A DNA stretch of 64,000 bases from an uncultured Chitinophaga sp. (GCA_964453625.1 CAYVSH010000001.1:6080-70079); one strand, 5' to 3'. Numbered from the stretch's first letter, positions 19,088 to 35,408 are shown. Notes: a model not told the origin generated them from the sequence alone. Numbers and translations: made by a program.

Positions 19088-19098
19088 TCTATAATTCT

Positions 19099-19989
19099 TT
19101 ATGTAAGTATATCTTTCTTTCTAAAAATCCAAACAGCTGCTCCGAAAAAGACGACTATATAAACCATAAGGATGCCAAGGCTTCGTAAAATGGCCGGAAG
19201 GTTTTCTATACTTCCATTGATGGTTGTACCTTCTGCATTCGCTTTTACATAGAAAAAACCTTTCCATGCCACCATATGCGATGTAAAAAGATATGGTTTT
19301 ACAGTTTCATCATAAATAGGTATGTTCATTTCTGATAAGATAGTAAATACGATTACAATGCTCATAGTGGCAATGATAGGTCCGATAGAGTTCTCTGCAA
19401 ACACACTTAATAAGAAAGCCAGGGCAGAAACTGTAGTTAAAGCTACAGCAGCATAACCAAACGCTGCAAAATATCTCCAGAGCACATCCATTCTTTTTAT
19501 CTGCTCTATTCCTTCGGATCTTAAAACCACCATATCATTGGTGCCAAAGATTAACATGCTACCAAACAAAGCCAGTAAAGCCATAACTAGTAACAATGCT
19601 ATAGTATAGATAACTGAAGCGGCGAATTTAACCAGCATATATTGTGTACGGCTGATAGGTTTGGTAAGTGATAGCCGTAACGTTCCCATGTTGGCTTCAC
19701 CGGCGATAGCATCCCCCGATATTAACGCCACCAATAATGGCATCTGAATAAGTAATGTATTCAGTATAACAAAACATATCAGGTAACCATTCAGCAGTTT
19801 AAGCTTAAAACTATCGGTAAAATCAAATGAGCCTGATAGATTACTTAGTAACAGATCAATGTATGATTTGCCATCAAACTTTAATGCTACCTGTATTAAA
19901 AAAACAATTGCAGCTATGGCACCAAAAGCAATGTAAGTTCTTGGTCGCTTAAATATTTTGAATAACTCAATTTTTAGAAGTTTCCACAT
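19099..19989 (-). CDS. ABC-2 type transporter permease
   Basis: IAGEANMGTLRLSLTKPISR motif and about six TM segments; overlaps the ATPase gene. Confidence 0.9.
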   Translation of the reverse strand: MWKLLKIELFKIFKRPRTYIAFGAIAAIVFLIQVALKFDGKSYIDLLLSNLSGSFDFTDSFKLKLLNGYLICFVILNTLLIQMPLLVALISGDAIAGEANMGTLRLSLTKPISRTQYMLVKFAASVIYTIALLLVMALLALFGSMLIFGTNDMVVLRSEGIEQIKRMDVLWRYFAAFGYAAVALTTVSALAFLLSVFAENSIGPIIATMSIVIVFTILSEMNIPIYDETVKPYLFTSHMVAWKGFFYVKANAEGTTINGSIENLPAILRSLGILMVYIVVFFGAAVWIFRKKDILT

Positions 19990-20905: not shown

Positions 20906-20979
20906 TTAATTTATAACCGTTAAATGTATCAAAGGTTTTCTCATTTATATTCTTTATTAAAATAAATTAAGTATAAAAC

Positions 20980-21010
20980 TTGCATTTATAGATTGTAGAT
21001 AGTACGTTTG
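20980..21010 (+). promoter_or_regulatory. Bacteroidota primary-sigma promoter (-33 TTG / -7 TAnnTTTG)
   Basis: ACTTGCA (TTG at 20980) and TACGTTTG at 21003-21010; same 23-nt offset as the promoters at 29331 and 30933. Confidence 0.65.
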
Positions 21011-21217
21011 TGAAGGTTCAGAAAACCACATACATCCCTCGTAAAACTACGATAAACGACCGTACCTGATCAACTTCACTTTTGAATAGTGTACGTCTAT
21101 TTAAAGTTTTTTACAAACTGATGCCGGTGGTTGCCGATGCCAAAAACTAACATCCAATATTTCTGTGGGTAGACTAAAAGATCCTTCTGGCTTATTGTCA
21201 GGACTAAACCCTAAGAA

Positions 21218-21631
21218 ATGACAAAAATAATTGCACTAGTTTCCATTATTGTCCTACGGATATTTAATCAAACTCCGCAAACGCAGGCAGCATTGCCGGC
21301 ATTTGGCCTCCCATTACAATCCTTTTCAAATTACATTACAAGTCCTTCTAAATTTATCAGTGCCACTGGCAAAATCGTAAAAGATAAAATCATTATCGCC
21401 TGGGAGATAAACGGGAATGAAACTGCAGATCTGTTTGAAATTGAAAAAAGTAAAGACGGGAAAATATTTTTGCTGGCAGCCCTTGTTTTTGGAACTGATA
21501 ATGCAAAAACAGATAGTTACCAATTCTATGAAAAGCTGGCTACTGAAAAAATGTTTTATCGAATTAAACTGATCAATAAAAACAAACAAACGGAGTATTC
21601 AAGAATCATTTCGATCACTCCTGCTGTATAA
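21218..21631 (+). CDS. Small exported protein made only of the Ig-like domain that normally precedes a T9SS CTD
   Basis: IIIAWEINGNETADLFEIEKSKDG...FYRIKLINKNKQTEYS parallels LKWITATEENVSHFVVEKSFDG...YYRIRTVDNDGKFEFS in 27048..29159; no CTD follows. Confidence 0.7.
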   Translation: MTKIIALVSIIVLRIFNQTPQTQAALPAFGLPLQSFSNYITSPSKFISATGKIVKDKIIIAWEINGNETADLFEIEKSKDGKIFLLAALVFGTDNAKTDSYQFYEKLATEKMFYRIKLINKNKQTEYSRIISITPAV

Positions 21632-21643
21632 ACAATTGCAACT

Positions 21644-21781
21644 ATGGCAAAATCAGTAAAAAAAGTGATCCGTGAGGAATACAACCGCCTGAAAAGGGCA
21701 ATGGAAAAAATGATGAAACCAAAAAAGCAAGGTGCTATGCCATCATTGATACTACAACCGGTAAGAACAAAAAATAATTGA
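21644..21781 (+). CDS. 45-aa basic hypothetical protein (below the ORF-track cutoff)
   Basis: MAKSVKKVIREEYNRLKRAMEKMMKPKKQGAMPSLILQPVRTKNN*; ATG 12 nt after the upstream stop, preceded by an A-rich context. Confidence 0.55.
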   Translation: MAKSVKKVIREEYNRLKRAMEKMMKPKKQGAMPSLILQPVRTKNN

Positions 21782-21864
21782 GGGGTACGATCTAATAACT
21801 ATTTTTCATACACTTAGAGTACCAACAGAGTACAAAGCCCTTTTTCTAAAGGGCTTACTCTTTT

Positions 21865-22152
21865 TTATCTCTTACCAAAATAAGATTGCAGATTTGCCAC
21901 ATATTCCTCAAATGCTTTGATGCCGGTTTTTGTAATCTTACAAATAGTTTGTGGGTAATTATCCTTGAACTGTTTGGTTATTTCAATGTAATCAGCTTCT
22001 TTTAATTTTTGGATCTGCACACTTAAATTACCAGCAGTAGCATTAGTTTTTTCCCGGATGAATGTAAACTCTGCCTCCTTCACACTAATAAGAAGTGACA
22101 TAACTGCTAACCGAAGCTGTGAATGTAATATTGGATCAAGTTCTTTAAACAT
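21865..22152 (-). CDS. Winged-helix transcriptional regulator (HTH_34 / MarR-ArsR-like)
   Basis: LDPILHSQLRLAVMSLL...TAGNLSVQIQKLKEADYI...T..G..AF. Confidence 0.9.
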   Translation of the reverse strand: MFKELDPILHSQLRLAVMSLLISVKEAEFTFIREKTNATAGNLSVQIQKLKEADYIEITKQFKDNYPQTICKITKTGIKAFEEYVANLQSYFGKR

Positions 22153-22846
22153 TAGCTTCTTTTAGTTCCCTTTTGGCATTTTGATAATCTTTCTCCATAA
22201 TAATACCTGGAATTAACCAGGCGAATATTGCCGAAAGTGCTACCAATAACAGATCAATTTTTATTGAAGTATAAATTGTTACTATACAACAAATCCAGCA
22301 GAATAACCCACCCAATAACATGGGTTTAAACTTCATGCTGACACCAGTAACAAAGGTTGGCAAGCCATATAACAAGAGAAATAAAGATGACTGATATTCA
22401 TAAAAACGAAATGCAGGTGAATGCCCTGCCAGATTTCTGTACTCCTCGGCAACTGGGCGATACGCATCCATCATAGAGCCAGTAATGTAAACCAACAGAA
22501 AGATACAAATACCAAAGCCCAGCCATAGGTAATCCATAAACGCATCACCATAAGCTTTTACTTTTCGTTCCTTTTTTTCACGAATGGTAAAATATATTTG
22601 AGGTATTACTGCTGCAAAAGTTAGCCAGTATATGTTGAAATGCAGTTTAAAATCAAAATGAATCTCTGCCAATTTAACTAATGAACAAACTGCAATAACA
22701 GTTCCCCACAATATTGCAGCAATACCAGTATCATGACAGGCATCTTTAGCTTTATTGATCATCTGAGTAATGAGATCAAGACTTTCTTTTTCTGATAATA
22801 TTTTCTCGGTTGCCATTACTATGGTTTGATTAATGATTGATTGCAT
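22145..22846 (-). CDS. Multi-pass membrane protein (paralog of 22830..23417); start may be ATG 22819
   Basis: ESLDLITQMI...LWG...LYGLPTFVTG...FKPMLLGG; about six hydrophobic segments. Confidence 0.8.
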   Translation of the reverse strand: MQSIINQTIVMATEKILSEKESLDLITQMINKAKDACHDTGIAAILWGTVIAVCSLVKLAEIHFDFKLHFNIYWLTFAAVIPQIYFTIREKKERKVKAYGDAFMDYLWLGFGICIFLLVYITGSMMDAYRPVAEEYRNLAGHSPAFRFYEYQSSLFLLLYGLPTFVTGVSMKFKPMLLGGLFCWICCIVTIYTSIKIDLLLVALSAIFAWLIPGIIMEKDYQNAKRELKEANV

Positions 22847-23417
22847 TATTCCTTACCCGAAGCATATAAGCTGGGATAATATAACTGAACAGGATAGCGG
22901 CAGCACCGAAAAGCATCTGGTAATCATAGCTCACATATACTGAGCCAATGGCAAGTCCCCAGGCAATGATGCCGCCAATTATCAATGGTCTGAAACGTAG
23001 TATACAGCCAGAAACAAATGTGCCAAGGCCATATAAAAGAATGAAAAAAGGAAAAACAGAAAATGCCCAACCTATTTTTGACAAGATCATACTTAATACA
23101 AAAAAACTGATACCCATTCCTGTCCACAGGTATTTCATACTTTCACCTATGTATGTTTTTACCTTGCTTTTTCTGTCCTCCTTTGAACCCTGGTAAACTG
23201 AGAATATGACACCAATGACAATAACACTCCATACGAGATAATGCTTTTCATATTCGTAAACATGCTTCAGAATAAATTGAGCTGTACAGGCAAAAAATGT
23301 AAGCCAGCCCCAAACAAGGAAATAAATTCCATTATCCGACATATCCTGTTTTGTTTTACTTATCATGGACTGAATAAGCTGAAGGCTTTGTTCAGGAGAA
23401 AATTTTACGTCTGACAT
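22830..23417 (-). CDS. Multi-pass membrane protein (paralog of 22145..22846)
   Basis: QSLQLIQSMI...VWG...LYGLGTFVSG...FRPLIIGG. Confidence 0.8.
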   Translation of the reverse strand: MSDVKFSPEQSLQLIQSMISKTKQDMSDNGIYFLVWGWLTFFACTAQFILKHVYEYEKHYLVWSVIVIGVIFSVYQGSKEDRKSKVKTYIGESMKYLWTGMGISFFVLSMILSKIGWAFSVFPFFILLYGLGTFVSGCILRFRPLIIGGIIAWGLAIGSVYVSYDYQMLFGAAAILFSYIIPAYMLRVRNNAINH

Positions 23418-23467
23418 GATCCGGTTATTGATTGATAAAAAAGGTTTTCTTCTTTAATAAAAGACAT

Positions 23468-24130
23468 CTACTTATACTGTGACAAAAAATAACTAATTGT
23501 CCCTCTGCCCCATTGCACGTCAATGCTACTGCCAGGTTTACTTACCATAAAAATTTCATTGGCTTTTTCAAATAACTTTTTTGCTTCTTCTTTGCTTCCG
23601 CCAAATTGTTCGGGTGTATAAAACTTATCCTGCCCTTCCAGAATATAAACCCTTGGATTATTTTCGTTCAGTGATTTTGCTTTTGCCAAAGCTGTGGCAG
23701 CTTTTGTTCCATCGGTCATATACCGGGCCATCGGGTTGCCCATCATTCTGAGAGAGTGAACCATTTTATACAAGCAATAAATTTCTGAGTTATCAGGGTT
23801 AATGGCATCTGCTTTATTTGCCAGTTGTTCTGCTTTATCTGCCAACGGGTCTGTTATAGAAGAGTTATCACCAAAGCTACCATCTTGTGGCATTGACAGG
23901 TTTCCTGCCATTACAGTACAGTATGCAGCATAATAGTAAGGTTCCCATTTTGTTTTTTCAGCATCTGCAATCCTTTCAAATGAGTTAGCAAGATCTTTGT
24001 ATGCCTGTGCTGTATTGTTGGAATCCAGCATAGCAACTTTAGACTCCATTGCTTTAATATACTTATCTGTTTGCGCAAATGTAGCAGTCATCAATATTGA
24101 AGCTGCAATAAGAAATAATCCTTTTTTCAT
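23468..24130 (-). CDS. Exported TPR-like hypothetical protein
   Basis: Signal peptide; FERIA..E...W.PYYY, NENNPRVYIL, TPEQFGGSKEEA; all-helical. Confidence 0.7.
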   Translation of the reverse strand: MKKGLFLIAASILMTATFAQTDKYIKAMESKVAMLDSNNTAQAYKDLANSFERIADAEKTKWEPYYYAAYCTVMAGNLSMPQDGSFGDNSSITDPLADKAEQLANKADAINPDNSEIYCLYKMVHSLRMMGNPMARYMTDGTKAATALAKAKSLNENNPRVYILEGQDKFYTPEQFGGSKEEAKKLFEKANEIFMVSKPGSSIDVQWGRGTISYFLSQYK

Positions 24131-24166
24131 TGTAGTGGTTTTTATTGTTAAAATTTTTTGTTCGAA

Positions 24167-24661
24167 TTAATCTACCAATGGACTTAACAAGGGCCATTTT
24201 AAGATCATCATAAAAAAAGCAAGAATTGGTGTAAGCAAAGCCATGATTCCCCAAAGCTCCCATTGCTTTAACAAACCCGTGAATTGCTTATCGTTATAAT
24301 CTCCATTGGCAACACTTGTATCCAGGTACTTTTTCATTTTGGATTGCAGTGGTGCCACTTTCCAGCCAAATAGTATTCCGGATAATGAAAACAAAACAAT
24401 CGGCCAGAAAATCCAACCAGTTCTTAATAACGGAATTCCTGCATAAATGGCTGCAAGTAAGCCCCCTGCAGTAATAATAATAACGCCAGGAATAGTAAAC
24501 AACCTGTCCGACCTGATAATACCTTTAGCAGTGTGATGAATGATAGCGAAGTTGTTAGTTCTCATCGCAAACCTCATCCAGAAAAGTCCTGTTATGATTT
24601 TTCCCAGAAAAGCTACAACTGCCAATAAGTGTATTGCTTTTAAAAGAAGATAGTAATTCAT
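24167..24661 (-). CDS. DUF2269 family membrane protein
   Basis: LKAIHLLAV..G, DRLFTIPG, W...S..LF.LSG..F...VAPLQ, FMMILK. Confidence 0.75.
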   Translation of the reverse strand: MNYYLLLKAIHLLAVVAFLGKIITGLFWMRFAMRTNNFAIIHHTAKGIIRSDRLFTIPGVIIITAGGLLAAIYAGIPLLRTGWIFWPIVLFSLSGILFGWKVAPLQSKMKKYLDTSVANGDYNDKQFTGLLKQWELWGIMALLTPILAFFMMILKWPLLSPLVD

Positions 24662-24672
24662 GTATAATCTTT

Positions 24673-26928
24673 TTACAACCCGTTATTGATCACTTCATCA
24701 CTCCTGTCTACTCCAAAACTTATAAATGCACCGATAAATACAAACATCCTTGAAGTGGGCACTATTGCTTCTTTCCTAAATCCGTTATAGGAGTATTGAT
24801 ATCCATAAGTTTGCCTGATATTGAAAATATTACTTATCTGCAGTACATACACAGCAAATGATTTTGGATTTTCTTTTCCAATAAAAGGAAGATAGTTAAC
24901 CGATAAACTTACGTTGTGATAGTCAGGAATTGTTCCCCTGTCGTTGAACTTATAATTGCTTCCATCAAAACCGATATTATAATACGGTCGTCCGCTTGCA
25001 TAGTTATATGCTATGTTCAGGTTTGATTTTAGTTTCTGAATAAATTTCTTTGTTACCACGGAAGCTGTATGCTTTGCTGCAAAATTGGGAGTAATGGCAA
25101 ACGGAAAGTTTAAGAAGTCTCTTTCAGTATCCAGGTACGAATAAGAAATCCAATAATCGAAATTCTTAATTGTCTTTTTGTCTCTCCAGAAAAATTCAAT
25201 TCCTTTGGCATCCCCAAAGCCATTATTATTAATAGCGGATTCAGCAAAATTCACATTCCTGGTTTTAACCAGGTTGTCATATTTTTTGTAAAAAACTTCA
25301 GCACGGAATGATTGTTGGTTTACTACTTTTTGAAACTGGGCAATATAATGAGTTGCCTTCATAAAATCCAAAGCATTGGGCGATGGCAGGTAACGGCGTT
25401 CTGGGTTTTGATAAAAAATCCCATATGCAAGAGAAGCCTGTGTTCCTTTTCCAAGTTTATACGCCAATGAAAGACGGGGTGCAATATTAGCTTTATCAAG
25501 AATTGAAGAATGCTCCATTCGCAAGCCTCCTTTTATAGCCAGGTCATTGGTAGCATATACATCCCCTTCGGCAAAAAATGCCTTAATATGCTCTTTTACG
25601 TTATTGGGATATTGCTGGTTATCATAAGCAGTATATGTGAGATGATCATTGCTATAATTATACTCGCCTCCAAAACGAACAGCACTAAGACCTTTCAGTT
25701 TTTTTTCTAACATTACTCTTGAATTAAAGTAATTCCCCTTTGTTTTTATAGCAAACTTTTTAAACTCAAGCCCTGTCAGTTGCACATCGTTCTTATTCTG
25801 GTCCTGCATAACGCTGTTAATATCATCCCTGTTATTTGTAAAGGATGTACCGATATTTATTTTCCAGCGTTTAGGTAAGTTTTCTTTCCATGAAAGATTG
25901 TGGTAGAGATTACTGTTCTTTATTGAGAACTTGTCAAGATAACCCAATGAGTCGAGACTGTTAGTAGTAAAGCCAAGTCTGTTGCTGCTGAAATAACCAT
26001 AATATTTTAACATGCCTGTCTTTGAAGTCTTGATCCTGAAATTAGCATCCAGGTTATGATAAGCAGGAACTTTTGAATAATCCTGCCTTTGTTTTATCAC
26101 AGCAAATGCAAGACTAAGATCGGTATAGCCATAACTAGCCCCCCATGATGACTTTTTATTTTTTGCGAGGTGCTGGTAACCAGCACTACCGCTTAAAACA
26201 GTGAGACCAATGTTTGCAGAAGTTTGTTCAGGCAAATCAATTGATTCCAGGATCAACGCAGATGAAAGTGCCTGGCCATATAATGCAGAATAACCACCAG
26301 TACTGAAAACAGTTCCTTTAAAAATAAAAGGAGAAAATCGGCCGAACTGTGCAATGTTGGGAACACTGCTGTAAAAGAAATTATTAACTAAAGTTCCATC
26401 TATAAATGTTTTTGTTTCTGCAGCCGTACCACCTCGAACAAAAAGACCTTCGCTTTCGCCAACCTGTTGTGCACCAGGTAATGTTTTTAAAGCCCCTGTA
26501 ATATCACCATTGGCACTTGCAGTTGTTACAATATCTATTGGGTCTAAAACTGCAGATGCTCTTTTCCTGTCACTGGCTTCAAATGTTCCGGCAGTAAGGA
26601 CCACTGCGGTAAGTTCTGTAATCTCTTGTTTCAGTGATGCATCTATGGTTAATACACCACTCTCTAATTTTACCGTTTGCTCAAACGGCTTGTAACCAAG
26701 GTTAGTGATTACAAGAATTTGCTGGCCTTTTTCAGTTGTTTTAAATGAATAATTTCCGGCTGAATCTGAAGTGGCGCCATCATATGTATCCTTTAATGTA
26801 ATGCTGGCCCCGCCAACAGGATTGTTCTTGTTATCTCTTACTGTCCCTTTAATAGTTACTTGTGAAAAAACCGTTTGAAAGGTTCCGGTAAAAAGAATAA
26901 TCAGTATGAAATTTTTAAACCAGTTCAT
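24673..26928 (-). CDS. TonB-dependent receptor (carboxypeptidase-regulatory-like N domain, plug, barrel)
   Basis: VTIKGTVRD N domain, LKTLPG...LFVRGG...DG plug, SALYGQALS; beta-barrel C-terminal region. Confidence 0.85.
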   Translation of the reverse strand: MNWFKNFILIILFTGTFQTVFSQVTIKGTVRDNKNNPVGGASITLKDTYDGATSDSAGNYSFKTTEKGQQILVITNLGYKPFEQTVKLESGVLTIDASLKQEITELTAVVLTAGTFEASDRKRASAVLDPIDIVTTASANGDITGALKTLPGAQQVGESEGLFVRGGTAAETKTFIDGTLVNNFFYSSVPNIAQFGRFSPFIFKGTVFSTGGYSALYGQALSSALILESIDLPEQTSANIGLTVLSGSAGYQHLAKNKKSSWGASYGYTDLSLAFAVIKQRQDYSKVPAYHNLDANFRIKTSKTGMLKYYGYFSSNRLGFTTNSLDSLGYLDKFSIKNSNLYHNLSWKENLPKRWKINIGTSFTNNRDDINSVMQDQNKNDVQLTGLEFKKFAIKTKGNYFNSRVMLEKKLKGLSAVRFGGEYNYSNDHLTYTAYDNQQYPNNVKEHIKAFFAEGDVYATNDLAIKGGLRMEHSSILDKANIAPRLSLAYKLGKGTQASLAYGIFYQNPERRYLPSPNALDFMKATHYIAQFQKVVNQQSFRAEVFYKKYDNLVKTRNVNFAESAINNNGFGDAKGIEFFWRDKKTIKNFDYWISYSYLDTERDFLNFPFAITPNFAAKHTASVVTKKFIQKLKSNLNIAYNYASGRPYYNIGFDGSNYKFNDRGTIPDYHNVSLSVNYLPFIGKENPKSFAVYVLQISNIFNIRQTYGYQYSYNGFRKEAIVPTSRMFVFIGAFISFGVDRSDEVINNGL

Positions 26929-26994
26929 ATAATAAATCAGATTTGGAGCACAAACATAAAGTAGTTTATAATATAAACCAAATTGTTTTTACAA

Positions 26995-27025
26995 AAAGAA
27001 ACCCATCCTGGGACCAGGACGGGTT
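26995..27025 (-). terminator. Intrinsic terminator of the 27048 gene (identical copy at 29437..29467)
   Basis: Minus strand AACCCGTCCTGG-TC-CCAGGATGGGTT followed by TCTTT. Confidence 0.85.
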
Positions 27026-27083
27026 ATACCCTTAATACTAATGAAAATTATTGTTTTACGATTTTTTGTTGTGCTGTTGCGCC
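26995..27083. repeat. 89-bp direct repeat, copy 1 (last 11 codons + 3'UTR + terminator of the T9SS paralog)
   Basis: Identical by eye to 29437..29525. Confidence 0.95.
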
Positions 27084-29159
27084 ATCACAGATTGCCCGTA
27101 CAATATAAAAGCCAGGTTGCAAATTGCCTATATTGATTGTTTCAGTCTGGCTACTGCTGAAATTTTCAATTCTTTTGGCCACCTGTCCGTTAGCATTAAA
27201 AAGCTCAATCATCACTTTCTTATTTTGCCAGCCAGAAGGCAACGTAATATTTAGTTGCGTACTAGCAGGATTTGGATAAGTAACAATATTGATTGCATTT
27301 TCTGCCTGCTTTGAAATCCTGATAACCCGAACTGAAGAAAATTCAAACTTACCATCATTATCAACCGTACGAATACGATAATAAATTACACCAGATTGAA
27401 CTGTACTTACATCATCTTTCAAAGTATAGCTCTTATTAGTAGTTGTATTTCCGAAAGCAAACACAAGACCAGCGTCACTATAATTCACTCCATCAAAACT
27501 TTTTTCTACTACAAAATGACTAACATTCTCTTCTGTGGCTGTTATCCATTTTAGATCCACTTTTTTTACTGTATTATTTAATGTGGCAGTAAAGGATTCC
27601 ATTTTTACAGGCAATGTCGTCATTTGAGGATAAACAAAACCTCTGGTTACCATACTATATTTACGGGTTTCTGTTGTATTGCTTGATATGATCATTCCTA
27701 CTTTCACTGTATATGATGATAGATTAGTATTAGAAACCGTAAACATGTATTGTTTTGCACTTGTATCAATTCCATTAACTGTTTTATTATCTATATTAGT
27801 TCCTCTGAAACTACCAGCTGTTGGCTGTGTAATCTGAATGCCTGGGTTATTATTTACGTAAGCAGCAGTGGCGCCTGTACCCATTCCAATTTCATTGAAC
27901 TCCCTTAAACTGGAATTACCATCTATATCAAGTGCTGTTAAAGTAAATGAACTTAATGATAATGGGATATTAGTTCCGGTAATCATATTACGAAGAGTAA
28001 ATACTGCATAAAAAGTACCTATCCCGCCACCAGGAGTTATATGAGGTTGAAAACCTTCAATAAAACCAACGCCAGCTCCATTATCATCCACAATAGCCAC
28101 TTTTGCTCCATTTACTAAACTATCAATCTGAACATGAACATCCATCCCCGGTGCTACACTTTCATATTTATATACAGCACCTGTCTGCTTATCTGTCCCT
28201 GAAATCAAAACGGGATTAGCAGTAAAATCGAAAATATTTTGTGTCAGAGATGCCATTAAAGGTGCTGGAAAATTTAAAATAGAGCAGCTAGACGTTTGTG
28301 ATCCTGAAACTTTACCATTTGGGATATAGTTGACTGGGGTAGCAACACAATACGAATTCAAAAACAGGCCACCTGCTGTGTTTGCTGAGTTCATCACAGA
28401 AATGGTGCCACCACCTGTAATATTTGTTTTATGATTTTTTAAAGTAATATTTTCAATGGTTCCATTGGCATTAACTCCACTTAGTTTAAAAACTCCAAGT
28501 GCACTTGCAACTTGAACTTTTACATCTTGAAAATGAATATTGCTACCCGTGATCATAAAATCACCTGTATTATGCCAGCCTACCGAAACTGAGCTATATA
28601 ATAATGTATCAATTGAATTTGAATTTTGATTGTAGTCTTTACCTAAAGTGACAGATGTATTATATAATTTTCTTGATCCCCAATTCTTATTTTCAAAATT
28701 TTCTGCTACCTCTACATAACTGTTCCTTATTTCCACATAACCACCTGCATTTATAAAAGAGCCGGTTTGAGGTGTGCCCGATTCACCAGCACCAATAAAT
28801 CGGTATTGACGATACTCTGCATTATTAATATAAACTTTACCCGTTGAAGCATTTGTAAACGTTAATCCTGATGCCACAATCAATCTTGGAGATAAACCTC
28901 CGGGATTGGCTATATTAATAGTACCATTATTTAAAATATTTGAACCCGTAATTGTAACTACATGTTTAATATTTATAACAGCTGTTGTTGGAATATTGCC
29001 AGCATTAGGAACAACTCCGCCTTGCCAAGTTGCTGCACTGGTCCATGAACCATTAGCAATGGTAGTATAAGTTTGTGCAAATACTCCTGTTGAATAAATA
29101 ACTGCAATAACTACTACCAGGTAGTTTACAATTTTTTGTAATGGTACAATCTTTTTCAT
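27048..29159 (-). CDS. T9SS type-A substrate, paralog A (extra N-terminal domain); start ATG 29159 or GTG 29168
   Basis: Signal peptide, TIANGSWTSAATWQGG N domain, GAVYKY..V..G.D domain, LPVKMESF Ig-like domain, TYPNPA...GFYIV CTD. Confidence 0.85.
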   Translation of the reverse strand: MKKIVPLQKIVNYLVVVIAVIYSTGVFAQTYTTIANGSWTSAATWQGGVVPNAGNIPTTAVINIKHVVTITGSNILNNGTINIANPGGLSPRLIVASGLTFTNASTGKVYINNAEYRQYRFIGAGESGTPQTGSFINAGGYVEIRNSYVEVAENFENKNWGSRKLYNTSVTLGKDYNQNSNSIDTLLYSSVSVGWHNTGDFMITGSNIHFQDVKVQVASALGVFKLSGVNANGTIENITLKNHKTNITGGGTISVMNSANTAGGLFLNSYCVATPVNYIPNGKVSGSQTSSCSILNFPAPLMASLTQNIFDFTANPVLISGTDKQTGAVYKYESVAPGMDVHVQIDSLVNGAKVAIVDDNGAGVGFIEGFQPHITPGGGIGTFYAVFTLRNMITGTNIPLSLSSFTLTALDIDGNSSLREFNEIGMGTGATAAYVNNNPGIQITQPTAGSFRGTNIDNKTVNGIDTSAKQYMFTVSNTNLSSYTVKVGMIISSNTTETRKYSMVTRGFVYPQMTTLPVKMESFTATLNNTVKKVDLKWITATEENVSHFVVEKSFDGVNYSDAGLVFAFGNTTTNKSYTLKDDVSTVQSGVIYYRIRTVDNDGKFEFSSVRVIRISKQAENAINIVTYPNPASTQLNITLPSGWQNKKVMIELFNANGQVAKRIENFSSSQTETINIGNLQPGFYIVRAICDGATAQQKIVKQ

Positions 29160-29185
29160 CGTTTTCACTTTAGGGTGTAGGGTAT
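29153..29185. repeat. 33-bp direct repeat around the start codon, copy 1
   Basis: Identical to 30752..30784. Confidence 0.9.
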
Positions 29186-29238
29186 GATCGAAGCTTTTTA
29201 GCTTCCCTTAAGTCAACTATGAAAACCGATTTGTAAGA

Positions 29239-29418
29239 TTGAAACAGACAGGAGGTAAATCTCCTATTGAGAGTAGTTTGTTTCAGGGGTCGGATTTCGT
29301 CGTTTTCTAAGGGATTGTTCGATTCTAACACAAACATAATACGCAGTTTTTTTACTTGCAAGTTTTTTGCGTACTATTTCTCAAATAAAACCGTAAATAC
29401 TGTAGTGTTTTTACGATT
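29239..29418. repeat. 180-bp direct repeat (promoter + 5' leader), copy 1
   Basis: Matches 30841..31020 with one mismatch (29396 A vs 30998 T). Confidence 0.95.
29331..29361 (-). promoter_or_regulatory. Primary-sigma promoter of T9SS paralog A (same sequence at 30933..30963 for paralog B)
   Basis: Minus strand ACTTGCA ... TATGTTTG, fitting TTG/TAnnTTTG. Confidence 0.7.
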
Positions 29419-29436
29419 ACACTTTAGAATTGATTT

Positions 29437-29525
29437 AAAGAAACCCATCCTGGGACCAGGACGGGTTATACCCTTAATACTAATGAAAATTATTGTTTTA
29501 CGATTTTTTGTTGTGCTGTTGCGCC
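29437..29525. repeat. 89-bp direct repeat, copy 2
   Basis: Identical to 26995..27083. Confidence 0.95.
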
Positions 29526-30758
29526 GTTACATTTTACTAGTACGAAGTACGTACCTGAGCTCAAATTATTAACGCTGAAAGATTCTGTCTGGCTGCTGTT
29601 TGCTTTTTCCATCCTGTTTACCATTATTCCGTTTGAGGAATATAATTCATAAACTACTTTTTTATTTTGCCAGTTTGCAGGAATTGTAACTCGTAGCTCA
29701 TTTTGAACCGGGTTAGGGAATGCCGTAATGGAGATTGTTTTATCTGACTTAGAGCTTAGTCTTACCATTCGGGTTTGAGAAAGCTCACTCTTCTCGTCAA
29801 TATCTACAGATCGTATCCTGTAATAAAATATACCTGACTGAACATTTCCTAAATGATCTGTGAAATTGTAGTTTGTAATGCTTGATGCAGTTCCGTAGGC
29901 AAACACTACTCCTACTTCGTTGAAGTTAATACCATCAGTACTTTTTTCAACCACAAAGTGACTAACGTTAATTTCACTTGAGGTGGTCCATTTCAATTCA
30001 GTATTTTTATTATTCAATGTGGCTGTAAAAGAAACAAGCTTTACTGGCAATATCTTCATATTGGGATATTGAAAATCACCAAAAAATGCAGAAAAGTTCC
30101 TAGCACCAGATCCAGATGTATAAATAGTACCAAAATCGATAGTTAATGATGAAACATTACTATTTCTCACAGTAAACATTACTTCCTTTTTGGTGCTGTC
30201 AATACCTGAAACATTGTTCCCTGCAATGTTTGTACTTGTGAATAAGCTGCCATTTTGAATAACAGAAATTTCAGGTGTTGTGCTTTGGTATGCAACAGTG
30301 CCTCCATTCATATTAATTCTACAATATTCTAATACGCTTAAGGTTGTTCCATCAATGTCTAACCCTGTGGTTGCAAGATTAGGGAAGGTATAAACTGATC
30401 CATCTGTGTTTTTAAACTCAATAAGAAATCTTGCATATGAATTTGGGCTTCCAGTAGTTACAGAACTAACAATAGGTTGAAAACCACCATCATATCCCAC
30501 TCCGCCGAATTGATCAATATTAGTAACCATTGCCCCATTCATTAGACTTTGAATTGTTACAAATGCATCTACACCGGTTTTAATATTTGTGAATTTATAA
30601 ACTGCACCTTGCTGCAAAGGTGTTCCACTTTGCAATGTAGCATTTGTAAAGCTTAGGTAGGGGAATGTTTGGCTATTTACAGATTTATGAAATAAGTTAA
30701 ATGACAATAGTATCAGAAGCTTAAAAATTTTTACTTTACTGTTTAGAAGTGTTTTCAT
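29490..30758 (-). CDS. T9SS type-A substrate, paralog B; start ATG 30758 or GTG 30767
   Basis: GAVYKFTNIKTGVDAFV domain homologous to the C-terminal part of paralog A; LPVKLVSF; AFPNPV...GTYFV CTD; same GATAQQKIVKQ end. Confidence 0.85.
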   Translation of the reverse strand: MKTLLNSKVKIFKLLILLSFNLFHKSVNSQTFPYLSFTNATLQSGTPLQQGAVYKFTNIKTGVDAFVTIQSLMNGAMVTNIDQFGGVGYDGGFQPIVSSVTTGSPNSYARFLIEFKNTDGSVYTFPNLATTGLDIDGTTLSVLEYCRINMNGGTVAYQSTTPEISVIQNGSLFTSTNIAGNNVSGIDSTKKEVMFTVRNSNVSSLTIDFGTIYTSGSGARNFSAFFGDFQYPNMKILPVKLVSFTATLNNKNTELKWTTSSEINVSHFVVEKSTDGINFNEVGVVFAYGTASSITNYNFTDHLGNVQSGIFYYRIRSVDIDEKSELSQTRMVRLSSKSDKTISITAFPNPVQNELRVTIPANWQNKKVVYELYSSNGIMVNRMEKANSSQTESFSVNNLSSGTYFVLVKCNGATAQQKIVKQ

Positions 30759-30840
30759 CGTTTTCACTTTAGGGTGTAGGGTATATTCGAAGGCTCATTT
30801 AAGCCGTCCTTAAGTTCACGTTGAAAACCGATTTAAGTTA

Positions 30841-31020
30841 TTGAAACAGACAGGAGGTAAATCTCCTATTGAGAGTAGTTTGTTTCAGGGGTCGGATTTC
30901 GTCGTTTTCTAAGGGATTGTTCGATTCTAACACAAACATAATACGCAGTTTTTTTACTTGCAAGTTTTTTGCGTACTATTTCTCAAATAAAACCGTATAT
31001 ACTGTAGTGTTTTTACGATT
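30841..31020. repeat. 180-bp direct repeat (promoter + 5' leader), copy 2
   Basis: Matches 29239..29418 with one mismatch. Confidence 0.95.
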
Positions 31021-31076
31021 TCTACTAGCCTTCAATCATTTGTATCTCGATATTTGCAGAATTATATTCAACAAAT

Positions 31077-31109
31077 AAAAAAGGCGAACCCGATTTAAAA
31101 GGTTCGCCT
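31077..31109 (-). terminator. Intrinsic terminator directly after atpA
   Basis: AGGCGAACC / GGTTCGCCT stem with an A-run on the left. Confidence 0.8.
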
Positions 31110-31134
31110 GATCTTATTTAGGTATAAACTTTAC

Positions 31135-32715
31135 TTATGACTTGTATTGAGGTATCAGGCTATTAGCCAATTCTACCATCTTCTTTAAACCGTCTTCAGG
31201 TAAATTCCCTTTCTTAAACTCTGCCATCACTTCAGGTAGTTTGTTATCCATTTCCATCAGGAAGTGTTCTTCAAACTCTTTCACTCTTTTTACCGGCACA
31301 TCTTTGATCAAACCATTTGTACCCAGGTAAATAATTGCTACTTGCTTTTCTACAGGGAAAGGAGAATATTGAGGTTGCTTTAATATCTCAACGTTTCTGG
31401 CACCTTTATCAATTACATTTTTGGTAGCAGCATCCAGGTCACCACCAAACTTAGAGAAGGCTTCCAGCTCACGGTAAAGGGCCTGGTCCAATTTCAATGT
31501 ACCGGCTACTTTCTTCATTGATTTGATCTGTGCATTACCACCCACACGGCTTACTGAGATACCTACGTTGATAGCCGGACGAATACCGGATAAGAACAGG
31601 TTTGTTTCCAGGAATATCTGACCATCAGTAATTGAGATTACGTTGGTTGGGATATAAGCTGATACGTCACCTGCCTGTGTTTCGATAATTGGTAAAGCAG
31701 TCAATGAACCTCCACCTTTTACCAAATGCTTAATACTATCTGGCACATCGTTCATGTTCTTTGCCACAGCATCATCATTAATAACTTTTGCAGCTCTTTC
31801 CAATAAACGGCTATGCAGATAGAATACATCTCCCGGATATGCTTCACGACCCGGAGGACGACGCAACAACAATGAAACCTCACGGTATGCCACGGCTTGT
31901 TTTGATAAATCATCATAAATGATCAAAGCGGGGCGACCGGTATCACGGAAAAACTCACCAATTGCAGCACCGGCAAATGGTGCATAGAACTGTAATGGCG
32001 CAGGATCTGATGCAGACGCCGCAACGATTGTTGTGTACTGCATTGCACCGGCATCTTGCAGTGTTTGCATTACACCGGCAATGGTAGATGCTTTCTGACC
32101 GATTGCCACATATATACAATACACAGGTTTACCTGCTTCAAAAAATTCTTTCTGGTTGATGATAGTGTCAACACAAATAGCGGTTTTACCAGTCTGACGG
32201 TCACCGATAACCAATTCCCGTTGTCCACGACCAATCGGGATCATCGCATCAATTGCTTTAATACCAGTTTGCAATGGTTCTTTAACAGGCTCACGGAAAA
32301 TAACACCCGGTGCTTTTCTTTCCAGTGGCATTTCATACAACTCACCAGTGATAGGACCTTTACCATCAATAGGGTTACCAAGTGTATTTACAACTCGGCC
32401 TACCATTCCTTCTCCTACTTTAATAGAAGCGATCTGGCCAGTACGCTTTACTTTAGCCCCTTCTTTAATATTTCCGCTTTCACCCATCAATACCACACCC
32501 ACATTATCTTCCTCAAGGTTCAATGCAATAGCTTTTACACCGTTCTCAAACTCTACCAGTTCACCGTAGCGAACATTACCCAATCCATACACACGGGCAA
32601 TACCATCACCAACCTGCAATACAGATCCTACTTCTTCCAGGTCTGCAGAAGCATTGAAGTTGCTCAACTGCTGGCGCAGTATCGCTGATATTTCATCTGG
32701 TTTAATCTCTGCCAT
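31135..32715 (-). CDS. atpA: F0F1 ATP synthase subunit alpha
   Basis: [50 protein letters not shown]. Confidence 0.99.
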
Positions 32716-32744
32716 ATTATTTTATTTTCTGTTTTTTATTTTTT

Positions 32745-32806
32745 GTTACCCGGCACCTGTGCTACTATGATCTTTCGTTGCGTCGCACTCTTCATCGTCC
32801 GGTAAT
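32745..32806. repeat. ~60-bp GC-richer intergenic element with short inverted ends (REP/MITE-like candidate)
   Basis: TTACCCGG ... CCGGTAA ends around GTTGCGTCGCACTC; lies between atpH and atpA in otherwise T-rich DNA; single copy in the window. Confidence 0.4.
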
Positions 32807-32818
32807 TCTATTCAACTT

Positions 32819-33382
32819 TTATCTTACCTTATAAACAAAGTCATTGTTCTCAAACTGCTTTGCTATTGCTTTCAGATCGTAGGCAATACTTGCATCAATC
32901 AGCTTATCTCCAATCTGCAAAACAAAACCACCAATCAGGTCTTCATTCACTTTTTCTTCTAATTCTATCTTCTCAAATCCTGCTGATTTTTTTACCTGGT
33001 TTACAATGGCAATCTTTGTTGCATCCGTCAAAGGTGCAGCAGTTGTTAATTTAATAGTATGAATATTTTTTTCTGCTTTGTACGCATCAATAAAAGCACC
33101 ACTTATTTCAGGTAAATTACTCTCCCTGCCCTTTGTAGTCAATAATCTCATAAAAGCAATCGTCATTTCATTCAGTTTACCGGCAGTAACTGCATCAATG
33201 ATCTTTTTCTTTACATCTGCAGTAATAATAGGGCTACGAAGCAGGTTCACAAAGTCACGGTTGCTTTTGCATACCGCCTGTATCCATTGCATATCAGCAT
33301 ATACCTGTTCCAGCTGTCCTTTTTCTACAGCCAGGCCAAGTAAGGCTTTTGCGTATCTTGTTGCTAAACGTGGGTTTGGCAT
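32819..33382 (-). CDS. atpH: ATP synthase F1 subunit delta
   Basis: RYAKAL ... LIGGFVLQIGDKLIDAS. Confidence 0.97.
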   Translation of the reverse strand: MPNPRLATRYAKALLGLAVEKGQLEQVYADMQWIQAVCKSNRDFVNLLRSPIITADVKKKIIDAVTAGKLNEMTIAFMRLLTTKGRESNLPEISGAFIDAYKAEKNIHTIKLTTAAPLTDATKIAIVNQVKKSAGFEKIELEEKVNEDLIGGFVLQIGDKLIDASIAYDLKAIAKQFENNDFVYKVR

Positions 33383-33395
33383 TTCAATTCTTTAA

Positions 33396-33890
33396 TTAGT
33401 TCAATTTTACTCCGTCAACCAGCCCTTTAATATGAGCTTCCTGTGCTTCTTTGTTTCCTAATTCTTTTCTCAGCACTTTTTCACTTACTTCTATCACCAA
33501 CTTACCTACCTGGTTCTTCACATCAATCATTGCTCTCATCTTTTGAGTTTCAATAGCTGCCTGTGCTTCTAAGATGATCTTATTAGCCTCCGTCTTGGCA
33601 AGCTCTTTCGCATCGTTGATCATTTTCTCTTTGGTCTCTCTTGCTTCTTTCAGCATAATGGCTCTTTCTTCACGGGCAGAGGCCAGCAATGCTTCGTTCT
33701 CACTTTTCATCTGCGCCATTTCCTCTTTTACTTTCTGTGCAGTGGCTAGCGATTCAGAGATTGAATTTTCCCTGTCACGAAGACCTTTTATAATTGCCGG
33801 CCAAGCCATTTTCTTTAAAATAAAGAATACTACTAGGAAGGCCACTAAGGTCCATATAAGCAAACCAAATTCGGGAGTAAGAAGTTTCAT
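33396..33890 (-). CDS. atpF: ATP synthase F0 subunit b
   Basis: N-terminal TM ending in AWP.I...L..RE, then coiled coil; operon position. Confidence 0.97.
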   Translation of the reverse strand: MKLLTPEFGLLIWTLVAFLVVFFILKKMAWPAIIKGLRDRENSISESLATAQKVKEEMAQMKSENEALLASAREERAIMLKEARETKEKMINDAKELAKTEANKIILEAQAAIETQKMRAMIDVKNQVGKLVIEVSEKVLRKELGNKEAQEAHIKGLVDGVKLN

Positions 33891-33973
33891 TGTTTATATC
33901 AATTTCTTGTTTCAGATTAAATACTGCACCCTCCGCCCTGTGCTTTGGATGCAGTAATTTTTTGTGGCAATGA

Positions 33974-34237
<264 letters not shown>

Positions 34238-34265
34238 TTAAAAAAACAATACAACCTTAAATCGT

Positions 34266-35408
34266 TTATGCATGTGCATGAGCTTCGTCGTGATGTTCTC
34301 CTTCTAATGCCTGCCCTATAAACACAGCTGTAAGCATGGTGAAGATGAATGCCTGTAAAAAAGCAACCAACACTTCAATAAAGTAAATGAAGATGGTAAA
34401 CCCAACTGACAATGGTGATGCAGCCCAACCTGCAACAGAACTAAGTTTTCCAAAAATGAAAATCAACGATATTAAACAAATAATAATAATGTGACCCGCC
34501 ACCATATTGGCAAACAAACGAATAATTAATGCAAACGGCTTAATGAATACACTCAGAAATTCCACCGGTACCAGAATGAACTTTACACCTAAGGGTACTC
34601 CCGGCGGATTGAAAATATGACCCCAATAATGCTTGTTTGTACTAAAAAGTATAACTATAAATGAAATTACACCTAGTACCAGGGTAAAAGCTATGTTTCC
34701 GGTTACGTTTGCAGAACCCGGTATCAATCCGAAAATATTATTAATAAGAATAAAGAAGAACATCGTTAACAGAAATGGCAGGTACTTCTCATACTTATGA
34801 CCAAGATTTGGCTTTGCCACTTCATCTCTAACGAAAGTTATGACCGGCTCCAATAAACTTTGTGAACCCTTTGGAGCAGTAGTAACACCTACCCCGCTTT
34901 TATATCTTTTAGCGATACGAAGCATGATCCATACGAAGATGATCAATGCCAGAAGCATTTGTACTACATTACGGGTAAGCGATATGTCGTAAATTTTTAC
35001 AGTTGCATCTAGTTTACCCTCGGCAGTTACGGCTACAATATCTCCTTCAGCAAACTTTTTCGGATCAAGACCCATTTCATGAATAGAGTGCTCAGTGAGC
35101 ATTCTGTACCCCTGATAATCATGGTGTCCATGTTCAAATTTTGATGACATGAAACTGGTAAATCCTTTCTGCGGAGAATATAATATTATAGGTAGGGGAA
35201 TTCCGACAGGCTTGCCATTGATATCCATAAAGTGAAACTCATGGCCGTTTAAAACGTGGCCGAAAATCACTTTGGCAGCATCAAACCCTTCTTTTTTTTC
35301 GCCATCCTTTTCACCTTCACCCCCACCAGCAAACGCCGACATAGAATTGAACAAGAAAAATAAGCTGAAAACCGCTACAGTAAAGGATTTGAAACGTTGT
35401 ACTACCAT
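34266..35408 (-). CDS. atpB: ATP synthase F0 subunit a with Bacteroidota-type N-terminal extension
   Basis: IRLFANMVAGH, FLQAFIFTML; signal-peptide-like and soluble N-terminal extension. Confidence 0.97.
   Translation of the reverse strand: MVVQRFKSFTVAVFSLFFLFNSMSAFAGGGEGEKDGEKKEGFDAAKVIFGHVLNGHEFHFMDINGKPVGIPLPIILYSPQKGFTSFMSSKFEHGHHDYQGYRMLTEHSIHEMGLDPKKFAEGDIVAVTAEGKLDATVKIYDISLTRNVVQMLLALIIFVWIMLRIAKRYKSGVGVTTAPKGSQSLLEPVITFVRDEVAKPNLGHKYEKYLPFLLTMFFFILINNIFGLIPGSANVTGNIAFTLVLGVISFIVILFSTNKHYWGHIFNPPGVPLGVKFILVPVEFLSVFIKPFALIIRLFANMVAGHIIIICLISLIFIFGKLSSVAGWAASPLSVGFTIFIYFIEVLVAFLQAFIFTMLTAVFIGQALEGEHHDEAHAHA

What the first reader, a model, noticed from the sequence alone, without database searches (positions are those of the whole stretch)
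26995..31020. Tandem transcription units with near-identical regulatory frames around diverged cargo
The two T9SS paralogs are only about half identical by eye even in their best-conserved C-terminal region, and A has ~290 extra N-terminal residues. Yet three flanking blocks are essentially identical in DNA: 89 bp covering the last 11 codons (including synonymous sites), 3'UTR and terminator; 33 bp around the start; and 180 bp of promoter/leader (one mismatch). Old coding divergence with pristine flanks implies gene conversion, or cassette-like swapping of passenger domains between fixed frames. That would be a recombinase-free diversification system for secreted proteins.
Basis: partly seen in the sequence, partly recalled or inferred. 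Interest (0 to 1): 0.7.

Follow-up and report, generated by a model that had tools for sequence, protein, structure and literature searches.

The report
Converted regulatory frames, conserved leader RNA
Two old, diverged genes for secreted surface proteins sit side by side and share nearly identical control regions, because those regions are strongly conserved across the bacterial family, include a folded leader RNA absent from Rfam, and were recently copied from one gene to the other.

Summary
Genes A (27048-29159, minus strand) and B (29490-30758, minus strand) are T9SS cargo paralogs. They are 45% identical, with saturated synonymous sites. Three flanking blocks are 89/89, 33/33 and 181/182 identical.

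The flanks are not private to this genome. The promoter and leader block lies upstream of 85 family genes in 67 of 80 Chitinophagaceae loci. All sit in one slot between atpA and a TonB-dependent receptor. Identity between genomes is about 71%, while the proteins are 40-50% identical.

The block holds a Bacteroidota-type promoter and the 5' half of a leader RNA of about 130-140 nt. The leader folds as a long irregular hairpin supported by covariation and has no Rfam match.

Constraint does not explain 99-100% identity. This genome's blocks are at most 72-88% identical to those of any other genome. A and B are each closer to their own type in other genomes than to each other. One substitution that differs between strains is present in both copies.

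The best reading is strong constraint plus recent short-tract gene conversion. Cargo does differ between fixed frames across genomes. There is no evidence for a programmed swapping system.

The parts
31082..31109 (-). Intrinsic terminator hairpin after atpA. It marks the upstream limit of the slot.
   Evidence: Terminator scan. atpA is the ORF at 31135-32715 and is 93-98% identical to homologues in the related loci.
30839..31020 (-). Copy B of the 182-bp block. It holds a conserved far-upstream box (30999-31017), a -33-like TTG (in 30957-30963), a -7 box TATGTTTG (30933-30940) and the 5' strand plus apical hairpin of the leader RNA.
   Evidence: 181/182 identical to 29237-29418. Conserved upstream of 85 family genes. 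Motif coordinates.
30785..30927 (-). Structured 5' leader RNA of gene B. It is a long irregular hairpin. The 3' strand and a variable hairpin (about 30785-30838) differ from copy A.
   Evidence: CM R2 hit at 30798-30927, 104.8 bits. The MFE fold has the same architecture as copy A. Covariation counts.
30752..30784 (-). Copy B of the 33-bp start block: 24 nt of leader plus ATGAAAA.
   Evidence: 33/33 identical to 29153-29185. Between-genome identity of this segment has a median of 70%.
29490..30758 (-). Gene B, 422 aa from the ATG. It encodes a signal peptide, beta-sandwich domains and a T9SS type-A sorting domain.
   Evidence: AlphaFold2 model and Foldseek search.
29438..29526 (-). Copy B of the 89-bp 3' block: the last 11 codons, the stop codon and a terminator hairpin (29442-29467) with a weak T tail.
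   Evidence: 89/89 identical to 26996-27084. Hairpin coordinates. This copy did not pass the T-tail rule of the terminator scan.
29237..29418 (-). Copy A of the 182-bp block. It holds the far-upstream box (29397-29415), TTG (in 29355-29361), the -7 box TATGTTTG (29331-29338) and the 5' strand plus apical hairpin of the leader.
29186..29325 (-). Structured 5' leader RNA of gene A.
   Evidence: MFE -35.7 kcal/mol, z = -3.6 against shuffles. CM R1 hit at 29240-29325, 94 bits. CM R2 hit at 29196-29325, 103 bits.
29153..29185 (-). Copy A of the 33-bp start block.
27048..29159 (-). Gene A, 703 aa from the ATG. It has the same architecture as B plus an N-terminal extension of about 280 aa.
26996..27084 (-). 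Copy A of the 89-bp 3' block, including the terminator hairpin at 27000-27025.
24673..26928 (-). TonB-dependent receptor gene. It marks the conserved downstream limit of the slot.
   Evidence: Pfam CarboxypepD_reg and Plug domains. 70-83% identical homologues follow the family genes in most loci.

Best explanation
A and B are old tandem paralogs of a Chitinophagaceae family of T9SS-secreted, beta-sandwich, adhesin-like proteins. The family occupies a conserved but hypervariable slot between atpA and a TonB-dependent receptor gene. Every member has its own regulatory frame. The frame consists of an upstream box, a Bacteroidota -33/-7 promoter, a structured 5' leader of about 130-140 nt that begins at or near the transcript's 5' end, a conserved MKT start context, the conserved end of the sorting domain (..AQQKI[IV]K[QHN]) and an intrinsic terminator. 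Purifying selection on this frame keeps it 66-75% identical between genomes. That is enough homology for RecA-type recombination between neighbouring copies. In this lineage, short non-reciprocal exchanges (gene conversion, probably from B to A) have recently made three conserved segments identical. The fast-evolving cargo and the variable 3' part of the leader were left untouched. Shown here: the blocks, their family-wide conservation, the RNA covariation, the old age of the A/B split, identity within this genome above the background, and a concerted change between strains. Inferred: the transcription start site, the recombination pathway, the direction of conversion and the function of the leader. 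My best guess is that the leader controls the stability or translation of the mRNA of an abundant surface protein.
For: Blocks are 89/89, 33/33 and 181/182 identical, against 45% protein identity with saturated synonymous sites. nhmmer finds the 182-bp block upstream of 85 family genes in 67 of 80 loci. For the promoter and leader block, between-genome identity has a median of 71%. This genome's block against other genomes has a median of 75% and a maximum of 83%. Paralog pairs within a genome range from background (59-77% in L010, L011, L030 and L004) to 90-97% (L013, L042, L035 and L003) and 99% here. The 3' block has a median of 66% (maximum 72% for this genome) and the start block 70-73% (maximum 88%), against 99-100% here. 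Other genomes show the same mosaic, for example L003 with 183 bp at 97% upstream and 559 bp at 96% at the 3' end. A is 53-57% identical to A-type proteins elsewhere but 46% to B. B is 57-64% identical to B-types elsewhere. In strains X1-X3 the single shared double-depth unitig carries T>C at 29326/30928, so both copies have it, while the window and X4 have T in both. The 3' blocks are identical in the window and X4 but differ at 2 internal sites in X1 and X2. The slot is syntenic across genomes. Leader structure: apical hairpin 91% paired against 81.5% in shuffles, with 77 double-change cells against 20.7. Whole leader: 83.6% paired against 36-54% when the partners are slid, and 26 of 41 pairs show compensatory changes. 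Independent MFE folds of about 35 leaders give the same architecture.
Against: The boundaries of the identical blocks coincide with the family-conserved segments. Part of the pattern is therefore constraint, and the exact tract limits are uncertain. Three separate tracts separated by a diverged 54-nt stretch need several events or patchy repair. The concerted substitution rests on unitig depth and the absence of an alternative unitig, not on raw reads. The RNA alignments were fitted to the model, which favours the structure. RNAalifold on the raw MAFFT alignment predicted nothing. No transcription start site data exist, so '5' leader' is inferred from a promoter motif. The direction B to A rests only on similarity ranks.
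Confidence: 0.78

Rival explanations
1. Recent duplication plus cargo swap. One whole unit (promoter to terminator) was duplicated recently. The core of one copy was then replaced by a diverged cargo through recombination, with crossovers inside the conserved frames.
For: Across genomes the same frames hold 1-4 genes with cargo of 417-981 aa. In metagenome X7 the flanks (about 98% identical) have depth 24-26, while the A and B cores have depth 3-6. A dominant sister strain therefore carries a cargo region too different to be laid between the same flanks.
Against: Tandem pairs of A-type and B-type genes occupy the same slot in several other genomes (L010, L011, L013, L030 and L057), so the pair is ancestral. 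A two-crossover replacement would not leave a diverged 54-nt stretch between two identical upstream blocks. A and B each match their own type elsewhere.
Confidence: 0.12
2. Pure purifying selection. The blocks are identical only because every base is functionally constrained, with no exchange between copies.
For: The blocks coincide with segments conserved across the family. The leader region is about as conserved in DNA (78-86%) as atpA (79-86%) in metagenome loci L082-L085.
Against: No other genome comes closer than 83%, 72% and 88% to this genome's three blocks. Many block positions vary freely among genomes yet are identical here. The 11 terminal codons are identical at synonymous sites. 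Paralog pairs in other genomes sit at background identity.
Confidence: 0.03
3. Programmed variation system. This would be an antigenic or phase-variation device that actively shuffles or switches passenger cassettes between an expression frame and donor copies.
For: The anatomy of conserved ends and a variable middle resembles surface-protein variation loci. The cargo evolves fast (40-50% identity, against 93-98% for the neighbouring AtpA).
Against: Both copies are complete genes, each with its own promoter, leader and terminator. There are no silent cassettes and only two copies of each block. No inverted repeats flank the promoters. No alternative junctions appear in the contigs of the metagenomes examined, and strains X1-X4 keep the same arrangement.
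Confidence: 0.03
4. Assembly artefact. The identical flanks would come from a collapsed repeat or a repeat duplicated by the assembler.
For: Repeats of 89-182 bp are the kind that short-read assemblers mishandle. Only contigs, not raw reads, could be examined.
Against: Four independent metagenomes give unitigs that break at the same blocks, with about twofold depth on the shared unitig and unique unitigs on all four sides. In X1 and X2, variants within the 3' block resolve the order. The same mosaic recurs in unrelated assemblies.
Confidence: 0.02

Closest known systems
Concerted evolution by gene conversion between duplicated bacterial genes (for example tufA/tufB in Salmonella, or rRNA operons; from general knowledge)
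   Same: Non-reciprocal homologous recombination keeps parts of paralogs identical within a genome while orthologues diverge. No dedicated recombinase is involved.
   Different: Here only the regulatory frame and the last 11 codons are made alike. The coding cores remain 45% identical. In the classic cases the whole coding sequence is kept alike.
Porphyromonas gingivalis gingipain and HagA adhesin loci (T9SS cargo): domain rearrangement and allelic exchange (PMC5266723, read)
   Same: T9SS-secreted surface proteins with a conserved C-terminal sorting domain. Their passenger or adhesin modules vary among strains through recombination and allelic exchange.
   Different: In P. gingivalis the exchanged units are coding adhesin modules shared between dispersed genes. 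Here the shared units are non-coding regulatory segments of tandem genes, and no modular reshuffling of coding domains was seen.
Mycoplasma variable surface lipoprotein families (vlp, vsp, vsa), which have a highly conserved 5' region and signal peptide and a variable body (from general knowledge)
   Same: A family of surface-protein genes shares a nearly identical 5' non-coding region and start, placed in front of diverged coding bodies in a cluster.
   Different: Those systems switch expression by promoter slippage or site-specific inversion. No such switch element was found here.
Structured 5' leaders such as the E. coli ompA 5' UTR stabiliser, or riboswitch leaders (from general knowledge)
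   Same: A long conserved structure that starts at or near the 5' end of the mRNA of an abundant exported protein. Stems covary, and loops and junctions are conserved.
   Different: There is no sequence or model match to any Rfam family. Ligand, protein partner and effect are unknown. The shape is a single long rod and not a multi-branch aptamer.

Membership tests
T9SS type-A cargo (Por_Secre_tail, PF18962 / TIGR04183) | A C-terminal sorting domain at the extreme C terminus. | tested here: met
   A residues 631-704 match at E = 4e-13 and B residues 350-423 at E = 2.4e-12. TIGR04183 matches both. PDB sequence hits fall only on sorting domains of T9SS cargo.
T9SS type-A cargo (Por_Secre_tail, PF18962 / TIGR04183) | An N-terminal Sec signal peptide, and T9SS machinery encoded in the genome. 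| not tested
   A hydrophobic N terminus ending in an ..AQ/SQ motif is visible in the alignment. No signal-peptide predictor was run, and the machinery genes were not searched for.
Intragenomic gene conversion (concerted evolution) | Segments of paralogs are more alike within a genome than the same segments are between genomes, while the rest of the genes show old divergence. | tested here: met
   Blocks are 99-100% identical within this genome, against maxima of 83%, 72% and 88% to any other genome. The cores are 46% identical to each other but 53-64% to their own type elsewhere.
Intragenomic gene conversion (concerted evolution) | Substitutions that differ between strains are shared by both copies within a strain. 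| tested here: met
   T>C at 29326/30928 lies on the single shared double-depth unitig in X1-X3, while both copies have T in the window and X4. This is based on contigs, not raw reads.
Programmed cassette variation (expression site plus silent donors) | Promoterless silent cassettes and one expression site, with rearranged junctions inside a population. | tested here: not met
   Both copies have a promoter, leader, start codon and terminator. Only two copies exist. No joints other than those the repeat itself produces were seen.
Invertible-promoter phase variation (Bacteroidota fimbria or capsule type) | Inverted repeats flanking the promoter segment. | tested here: not met
   No inverted-repeat pair brackets 29237-29418 or 30839-31020.
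Structured cis-regulatory leader RNA / riboswitch | A conserved secondary structure supported by compensatory changes. | tested here: met
   0 of 500 shuffles reach the observed values, slid controls give 29-58% paired, and 26 of 41 pairs show compensatory change. Caveat: the alignments were fitted to the model.
Structured cis-regulatory leader RNA / riboswitch | The element lies inside the transcribed 5' UTR. | tested here: inconclusive
   A TAnnTTTG -7 box ends 5 nt upstream of the element, and frequent G-U pairs favour the sense strand. There is no transcription start site mapping. The one RNA-like run gives only fragments of the genes.
Structured cis-regulatory leader RNA / riboswitch | Specific ligand or protein binding that changes expression. 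| not testable with these tools
   This needs in-line probing, binding assays or reporter assays.
Any described Rfam family | A match to a curated covariance model. | tested here: not met
   No match at E <= 1 in window 26500-31500. No match at the gathering threshold in 10 related loci.

The most novel reading that the evidence does not exclude
The leader of about 130-140 nt is a new class of regulatory RNA, responsive to a ligand or a protein, that governs a hypervariable T9SS surface-protein slot across Chitinophagaceae. Under this reading its extreme conservation also turns the regulatory frames into fixed recombination anchors. Through these anchors cargo genes are exchanged, duplicated and lost between strains. 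An alternative pairing is possible: UCGGUUU with either GAAAUCCGA or the 5' GAAUCGA. This would be the switch.
Probability: 0.2. Interest if true: 0.75.

Novelty: new member of a known kind. Interest (0 to 1): 0.5.

Why it matters
Gene conversion between tandem paralogs is ordinary. What is worth keeping from this finding is threefold.

1. There is a conserved genomic slot (atpA - cargo - TonB-dependent receptor) in which T9SS-secreted, adhesin-like proteins evolve very fast and vary in number.
2. The promoter and leader module is about as conserved in DNA as atpA, while the proteins it drives are only 40-50% identical.
3. The leader RNA is structured, supported by covariation and absent from Rfam.

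This gives a concrete handle on how environmental Bacteroidota regulate T9SS cargo. It is also a clean natural example of homogenisation confined to regulatory DNA. The conserved frames could also serve as markers or primer sites for surveying cargo diversity in drinking-water and biofilter communities.

Tried and rejected
- Exact-protein look-ups of A and B, with GTG and with ATG starts, found nothing on record.
- The source genome is not among the top 80 loci from genome contigs; the best is 50% identical.
- RNAalifold on the raw MAFFT alignment of 84 leaders predicted no pairs, because indels misalign the hairpin. I replaced it with two hand-seeded covariance models.
- A pseudoknot between the apical loop (AUUAC) and the leader's GUAAU was considered by eye and dropped, because the two sites do not covary.
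- An upstream small ORF (ATGAAAC...) was rejected because the window has CTG at that position.
- Weak minus-strand HMM hits 6-7 kb downstream in many loci cover only the promoter part of the model. I took them to be generic promoter similarity and did not pursue them.
- The sigma-70 promoter scan is uninformative for Bacteroidota, with 16 hits against 17.4 expected.
- The sequence search of solved structures hit only the sorting domain. Foldseek on the AlphaFold2 model gave only generic beta-sandwich, Fn3 and adhesin matches with low TM scores, so the cargo's function stays open.
- The RNA-like run X15 gave fragments only, with no 5' end information.
- Two literature searches found no description of this leader or slot.
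Full report
**1. The observation**

Two genes lie head to tail on the minus strand. B is the ORF at 29490-30767, with a likely ATG at 30758. A is the ORF at 27048-29168, with a likely ATG at 29159. Both end in a T9SS type-A sorting domain. The proteins are 45% identical over 391 residues, and A has an N-terminal extension of about 280 residues.

In a codon alignment, only about half of the identical amino acids use the same codon, so synonymous sites are saturated. The last 11 codons are identical at every base.

Three DNA blocks are essentially identical:
- 26996-27084 = 29438-29526, 89/89.
- 29153-29185 = 30752-30784, 33/33.
- 29237-29418 = 30839-31020, 181/182.

Each block occurs exactly twice in the window. 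Between the 182-bp and 33-bp blocks lies a stretch of about 54 nt with 16 substitutions and 3 indels.

**2. Not an assembly artefact**

Near-identical sequence is present in drinking-water, biofilter and bioreactor metagenomes. In four of them the Logan unitigs break exactly at the blocks. A shared 158-nt unitig (29238-29395) has roughly the summed depth of the two cores, and unique unitigs enter it from all four sides. The depth also indicates only two near-identical copies in the genome. In X1 and X2, variants inside the 3' block tie B's 3' end to the junction with A's promoter and A's 3' end to the receptor gene. The order atpA-B-A-receptor is therefore right.

**3. The family and its slot**

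B has 746 relatives at E <= 1e-5. They are mostly from Chitinophagaceae MAGs and come in forms of about 425 aa and about 704 aa. A scan of one genome per species returned 80 loci.

In 48-66 of these loci the family gene or genes lie in the same place: atpH-atpA-[1-4 family genes]-TonB-dependent receptor-orf220. AtpA is 93-98% identical and the receptor mostly 70-83%, but the family proteins are only 40-50% identical. The genes behind the conserved upstream element range from 417 to 981 aa. Nearly all complete ones start MKT.. and end ..AQQKI[IV]K[QHN].

A is closer to A-type proteins of other sources (53-57% in the shared part, 48-64% in the extension) than to B (46%). B is closer to other B-types (57-64%). 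The A/B split is therefore old.

An AlphaFold2 model of B (mean pLDDT 77) is all-beta. It matches adhesin N-domains, Fn3/Ig arrays and phage tail-tip proteins, with low TM scores. The cargo looks like a beta-sandwich adhesin, but its function is unknown.

**4. The flanks are conserved across the family**

nhmmer with the 182-bp block finds it on the coding strand, about 85-270 nt before the ATG, for 85 family genes in 67 of the 80 loci (E from 1e-32 to 1e-5).

The alignment shows the following conserved pieces:
- An upstream box, CGTAAAAA.ACTACAG.AAATACGG.
- AAAAACTTGCAAGTAAAAAAACTGCGTATTATGTTTG. By established knowledge of Bacteroidota promoters this reads as a -33 TTG and a -7 TAnnTTTG, 20 nt apart.
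- A highly conserved transcribed segment.
- The start context CCCTAAA.TGAAAACGATGAAAAC.

In five metagenome loci that share an exact 53-nt leader word, the leader region is 78-86% identical, atpA DNA 79-86% and the cargo 65-70%.

**5. A structured leader RNA**

The transcribed part folds as one long irregular hairpin:
- P1: AUCGAAC with GUUCGAU.
- P2: UCCYUWAG with CUNARGG.
- A short helix around ACAAC with CAUUG.
- P3: GAAAUCCGA with UCGGNUUUC.
- An apical hairpin: UGAAAC[A/U]...[U/A]GUUUCA, enclosing GGGA/UCCC with a loop of ..AUUAC.

Evidence for the fold:
- The window's A leader has an MFE of -35.7 kcal/mol, z = -3.6 against shuffles.
- Independent MFE folds of about 35 diverse leaders give the same architecture.
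- A covariance model of the 5' part and apical hairpin (R1) finds 86 hits, all upstream of family genes. On that alignment 91% of cells pair against 81.5% in shuffles. There are 77 double-change cells against 20.7, and slid controls give 29-58%.
- A model of the whole leader (R2, 41 pairs) finds 79 leaders at E < 1e-8, including both window copies at 103-105 bits. Of the cells, 83.6% pair, against 36-54% when the partners are slid. Compensatory changes occur in 26 of 41 pairs. Examples are CG 25 / UA 20 / UG 16 at one P2 pair and GC 23 / AU 16 at another pair.
- Many G-U pairs favour the sense-strand RNA.

Caveats: the alignments are fitted to the models, and RNAalifold on the raw MAFFT alignment predicted nothing. 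No Rfam family matches.

The 182-bp identical block is therefore the upstream box, the promoter, and the 5' strand plus apical hairpin of the leader. The diverged 54 nt are the 3' strand plus a variable hairpin. A and B keep the same fold with different sequence.

**6. Constraint is not enough**

| Segment | Between genomes (median) | This genome vs others | A vs B in this genome |
|---|---|---|---|
| Promoter and leader block | 71% | median 75%, max 83% | 99% |
| 3' block | 66% | max 72% | 99-100% |
| Start block | 70% | median 73%, max 88% | 100% |

Paralog pairs in other genomes span the whole range. L011, L010, L030 and L004 are at background (59-77%). L013 is at 90%, L042 at 94%, L035 at 96% and L003 at 97%. 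Long near-identical 3' tracts also occur elsewhere, for example L003 with 559 bp at 96% and L043 with 385 bp at 97%. Homogenisation thus recurs in some lineages on top of a common constrained background.

Strain data show that it is recent. X1-X3 carry T>C at 29326/30928 on the single shared unitig, so in both copies, while the window and X4 have T in both. The 3' blocks are identical in the window and X4 but differ at two internal sites in X1 and X2.

The shared block resembles first-gene, B-type leaders of other genomes (80-83%) more than unconverted A-type leaders (67-74%). This suggests conversion from B to A (weak inference).

**7. Cassette swapping**

At the level of genomes the fixed frames do hold different cargo. 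In metagenome X7 the flanks (about 98% identical) have depth 24-26, while the A and B cores have depth 3-6. A dominant sister strain therefore carries a cargo region too different to be laid. Copy number varies from 1 to 4, as expected from unequal crossing-over between the frames.

Nothing indicates a programmed system, however. Both genes are complete and carry their own promoters. There are no silent cassettes, no inverted repeats around the promoters and no alternative junctions in any metagenome examined.

**8. Comparison with known systems**

The closest mechanistic parallel is concerted evolution of duplicated bacterial genes. The closest biological parallel is recombination and allelic exchange in T9SS cargo of Porphyromonas gingivalis (PMC5266723). 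The closest anatomical parallel is Mycoplasma surface-protein families with conserved 5' regions. The leader is most like a stabilising or regulatory 5' UTR, but it belongs to no described RNA family.

**9. Verdict**

The gene conversion is ordinary. The conserved slot and its unannotated structured leader are the parts worth following up.

Noticed in passing
window 31135-35408 (atpA, atpH, atpF, atpE, atpB on the minus strand) and 14000-31000: The ATP synthase genes run atpB-E-F-H-A. They are then followed by the T9SS cargo genes and a TonB-dependent receptor. No atpG-like ORF follows atpA among the ORFs checked down to about 18400 (the next ORFs are DUF2269, unknowns and an ABC transporter). 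The same order is seen in most related loci.
   Followed up: partly
L046, L069, L024, L025, L028, L050, L058, L059, L075 (about 7300-9700 in locus coordinates): The receptor gene downstream of the slot comes in two types among relatives. One is 70-83% identical to the window's protein and the other only about 38-56%. L046 and L069, the two genomes with the most similar AtpA and AtpH, carry the divergent type. This hints at recombination in the flank as well.
   Followed up: no
window 26979-31144, run X7: In one biofilter metagenome the flanking receptor and atpA contigs have depth 24-26 and are about 98% identical, but the A and B cores have depth 3-6. A dominant sister strain seems to carry different cargo between the same flanks. 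Its contig could not be retrieved.
   Followed up: partly
window 29220-29230 / 29317-29325 (and 30822-30832 / 30919-30927): The conserved UCGGUUU(UC) can pair either with GAAAUCCGA (helix P3) or, using G-U pairs, with the 5'-terminal GAAUCGA. In 28 of 45 distinct leaders the longest complement to the 5' end was 7 nt (most often this pairing), with a mean run of 6.4 against 4.8 in shuffles. This is a possible conformational switch but it was not tested further.
   Followed up: partly
window 29326 / 30928: The one site that differs between strains in both copies (T>C) lies in the 5 nt between the -7 box and the first base of the leader, that is, at or next to the presumed transcription start.
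   Followed up: no
window 29442-29467 versus 27000-27025: The two terminator hairpins are identical, but block identity ends inside the T tail. B's copy is followed by TCTTTAAATC (a weak tail) and A's by TCTTTTTGTA. Read-through from B into A's promoter region is therefore plausible.
   Followed up: no
L069 5881-7170: In one of the two closest relatives by AtpA, the family gene reads as a 147-aa ORF, with the rest of the homology in another frame. This is either a frameshifted pseudogene or an error in a long-read assembly.
   Followed up: no
L041, L060, L059, L012, L035, L029, L008, L001 (about 11700-13300, minus strand): There are weak matches (E from 5e-7 to 7e-3) to the promoter part of the upstream HMM, at a similar distance (about 6-7 kb) downstream of the family gene and on the opposite strand. 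This could be another gene with a related promoter, or generic promoter similarity.
   Followed up: no
window 26751-27074, 27554-27752, 30543-30690, run X15: A run labelled as probable RNA holds fragments of genes A and B. One contig spans A's 3' end, the terminator and the start of the receptor gene. This could be read-through or DNA carry-over.
   Followed up: no
window 29160-29168 and 30759-30767: The mechanical ORFs start at a GTG 9 nt upstream (VKTMK..). All homologues start at the ATG (MKT..), so the 33-bp start block is mostly 5' UTR plus 7 coding bases.
   Followed up: yes
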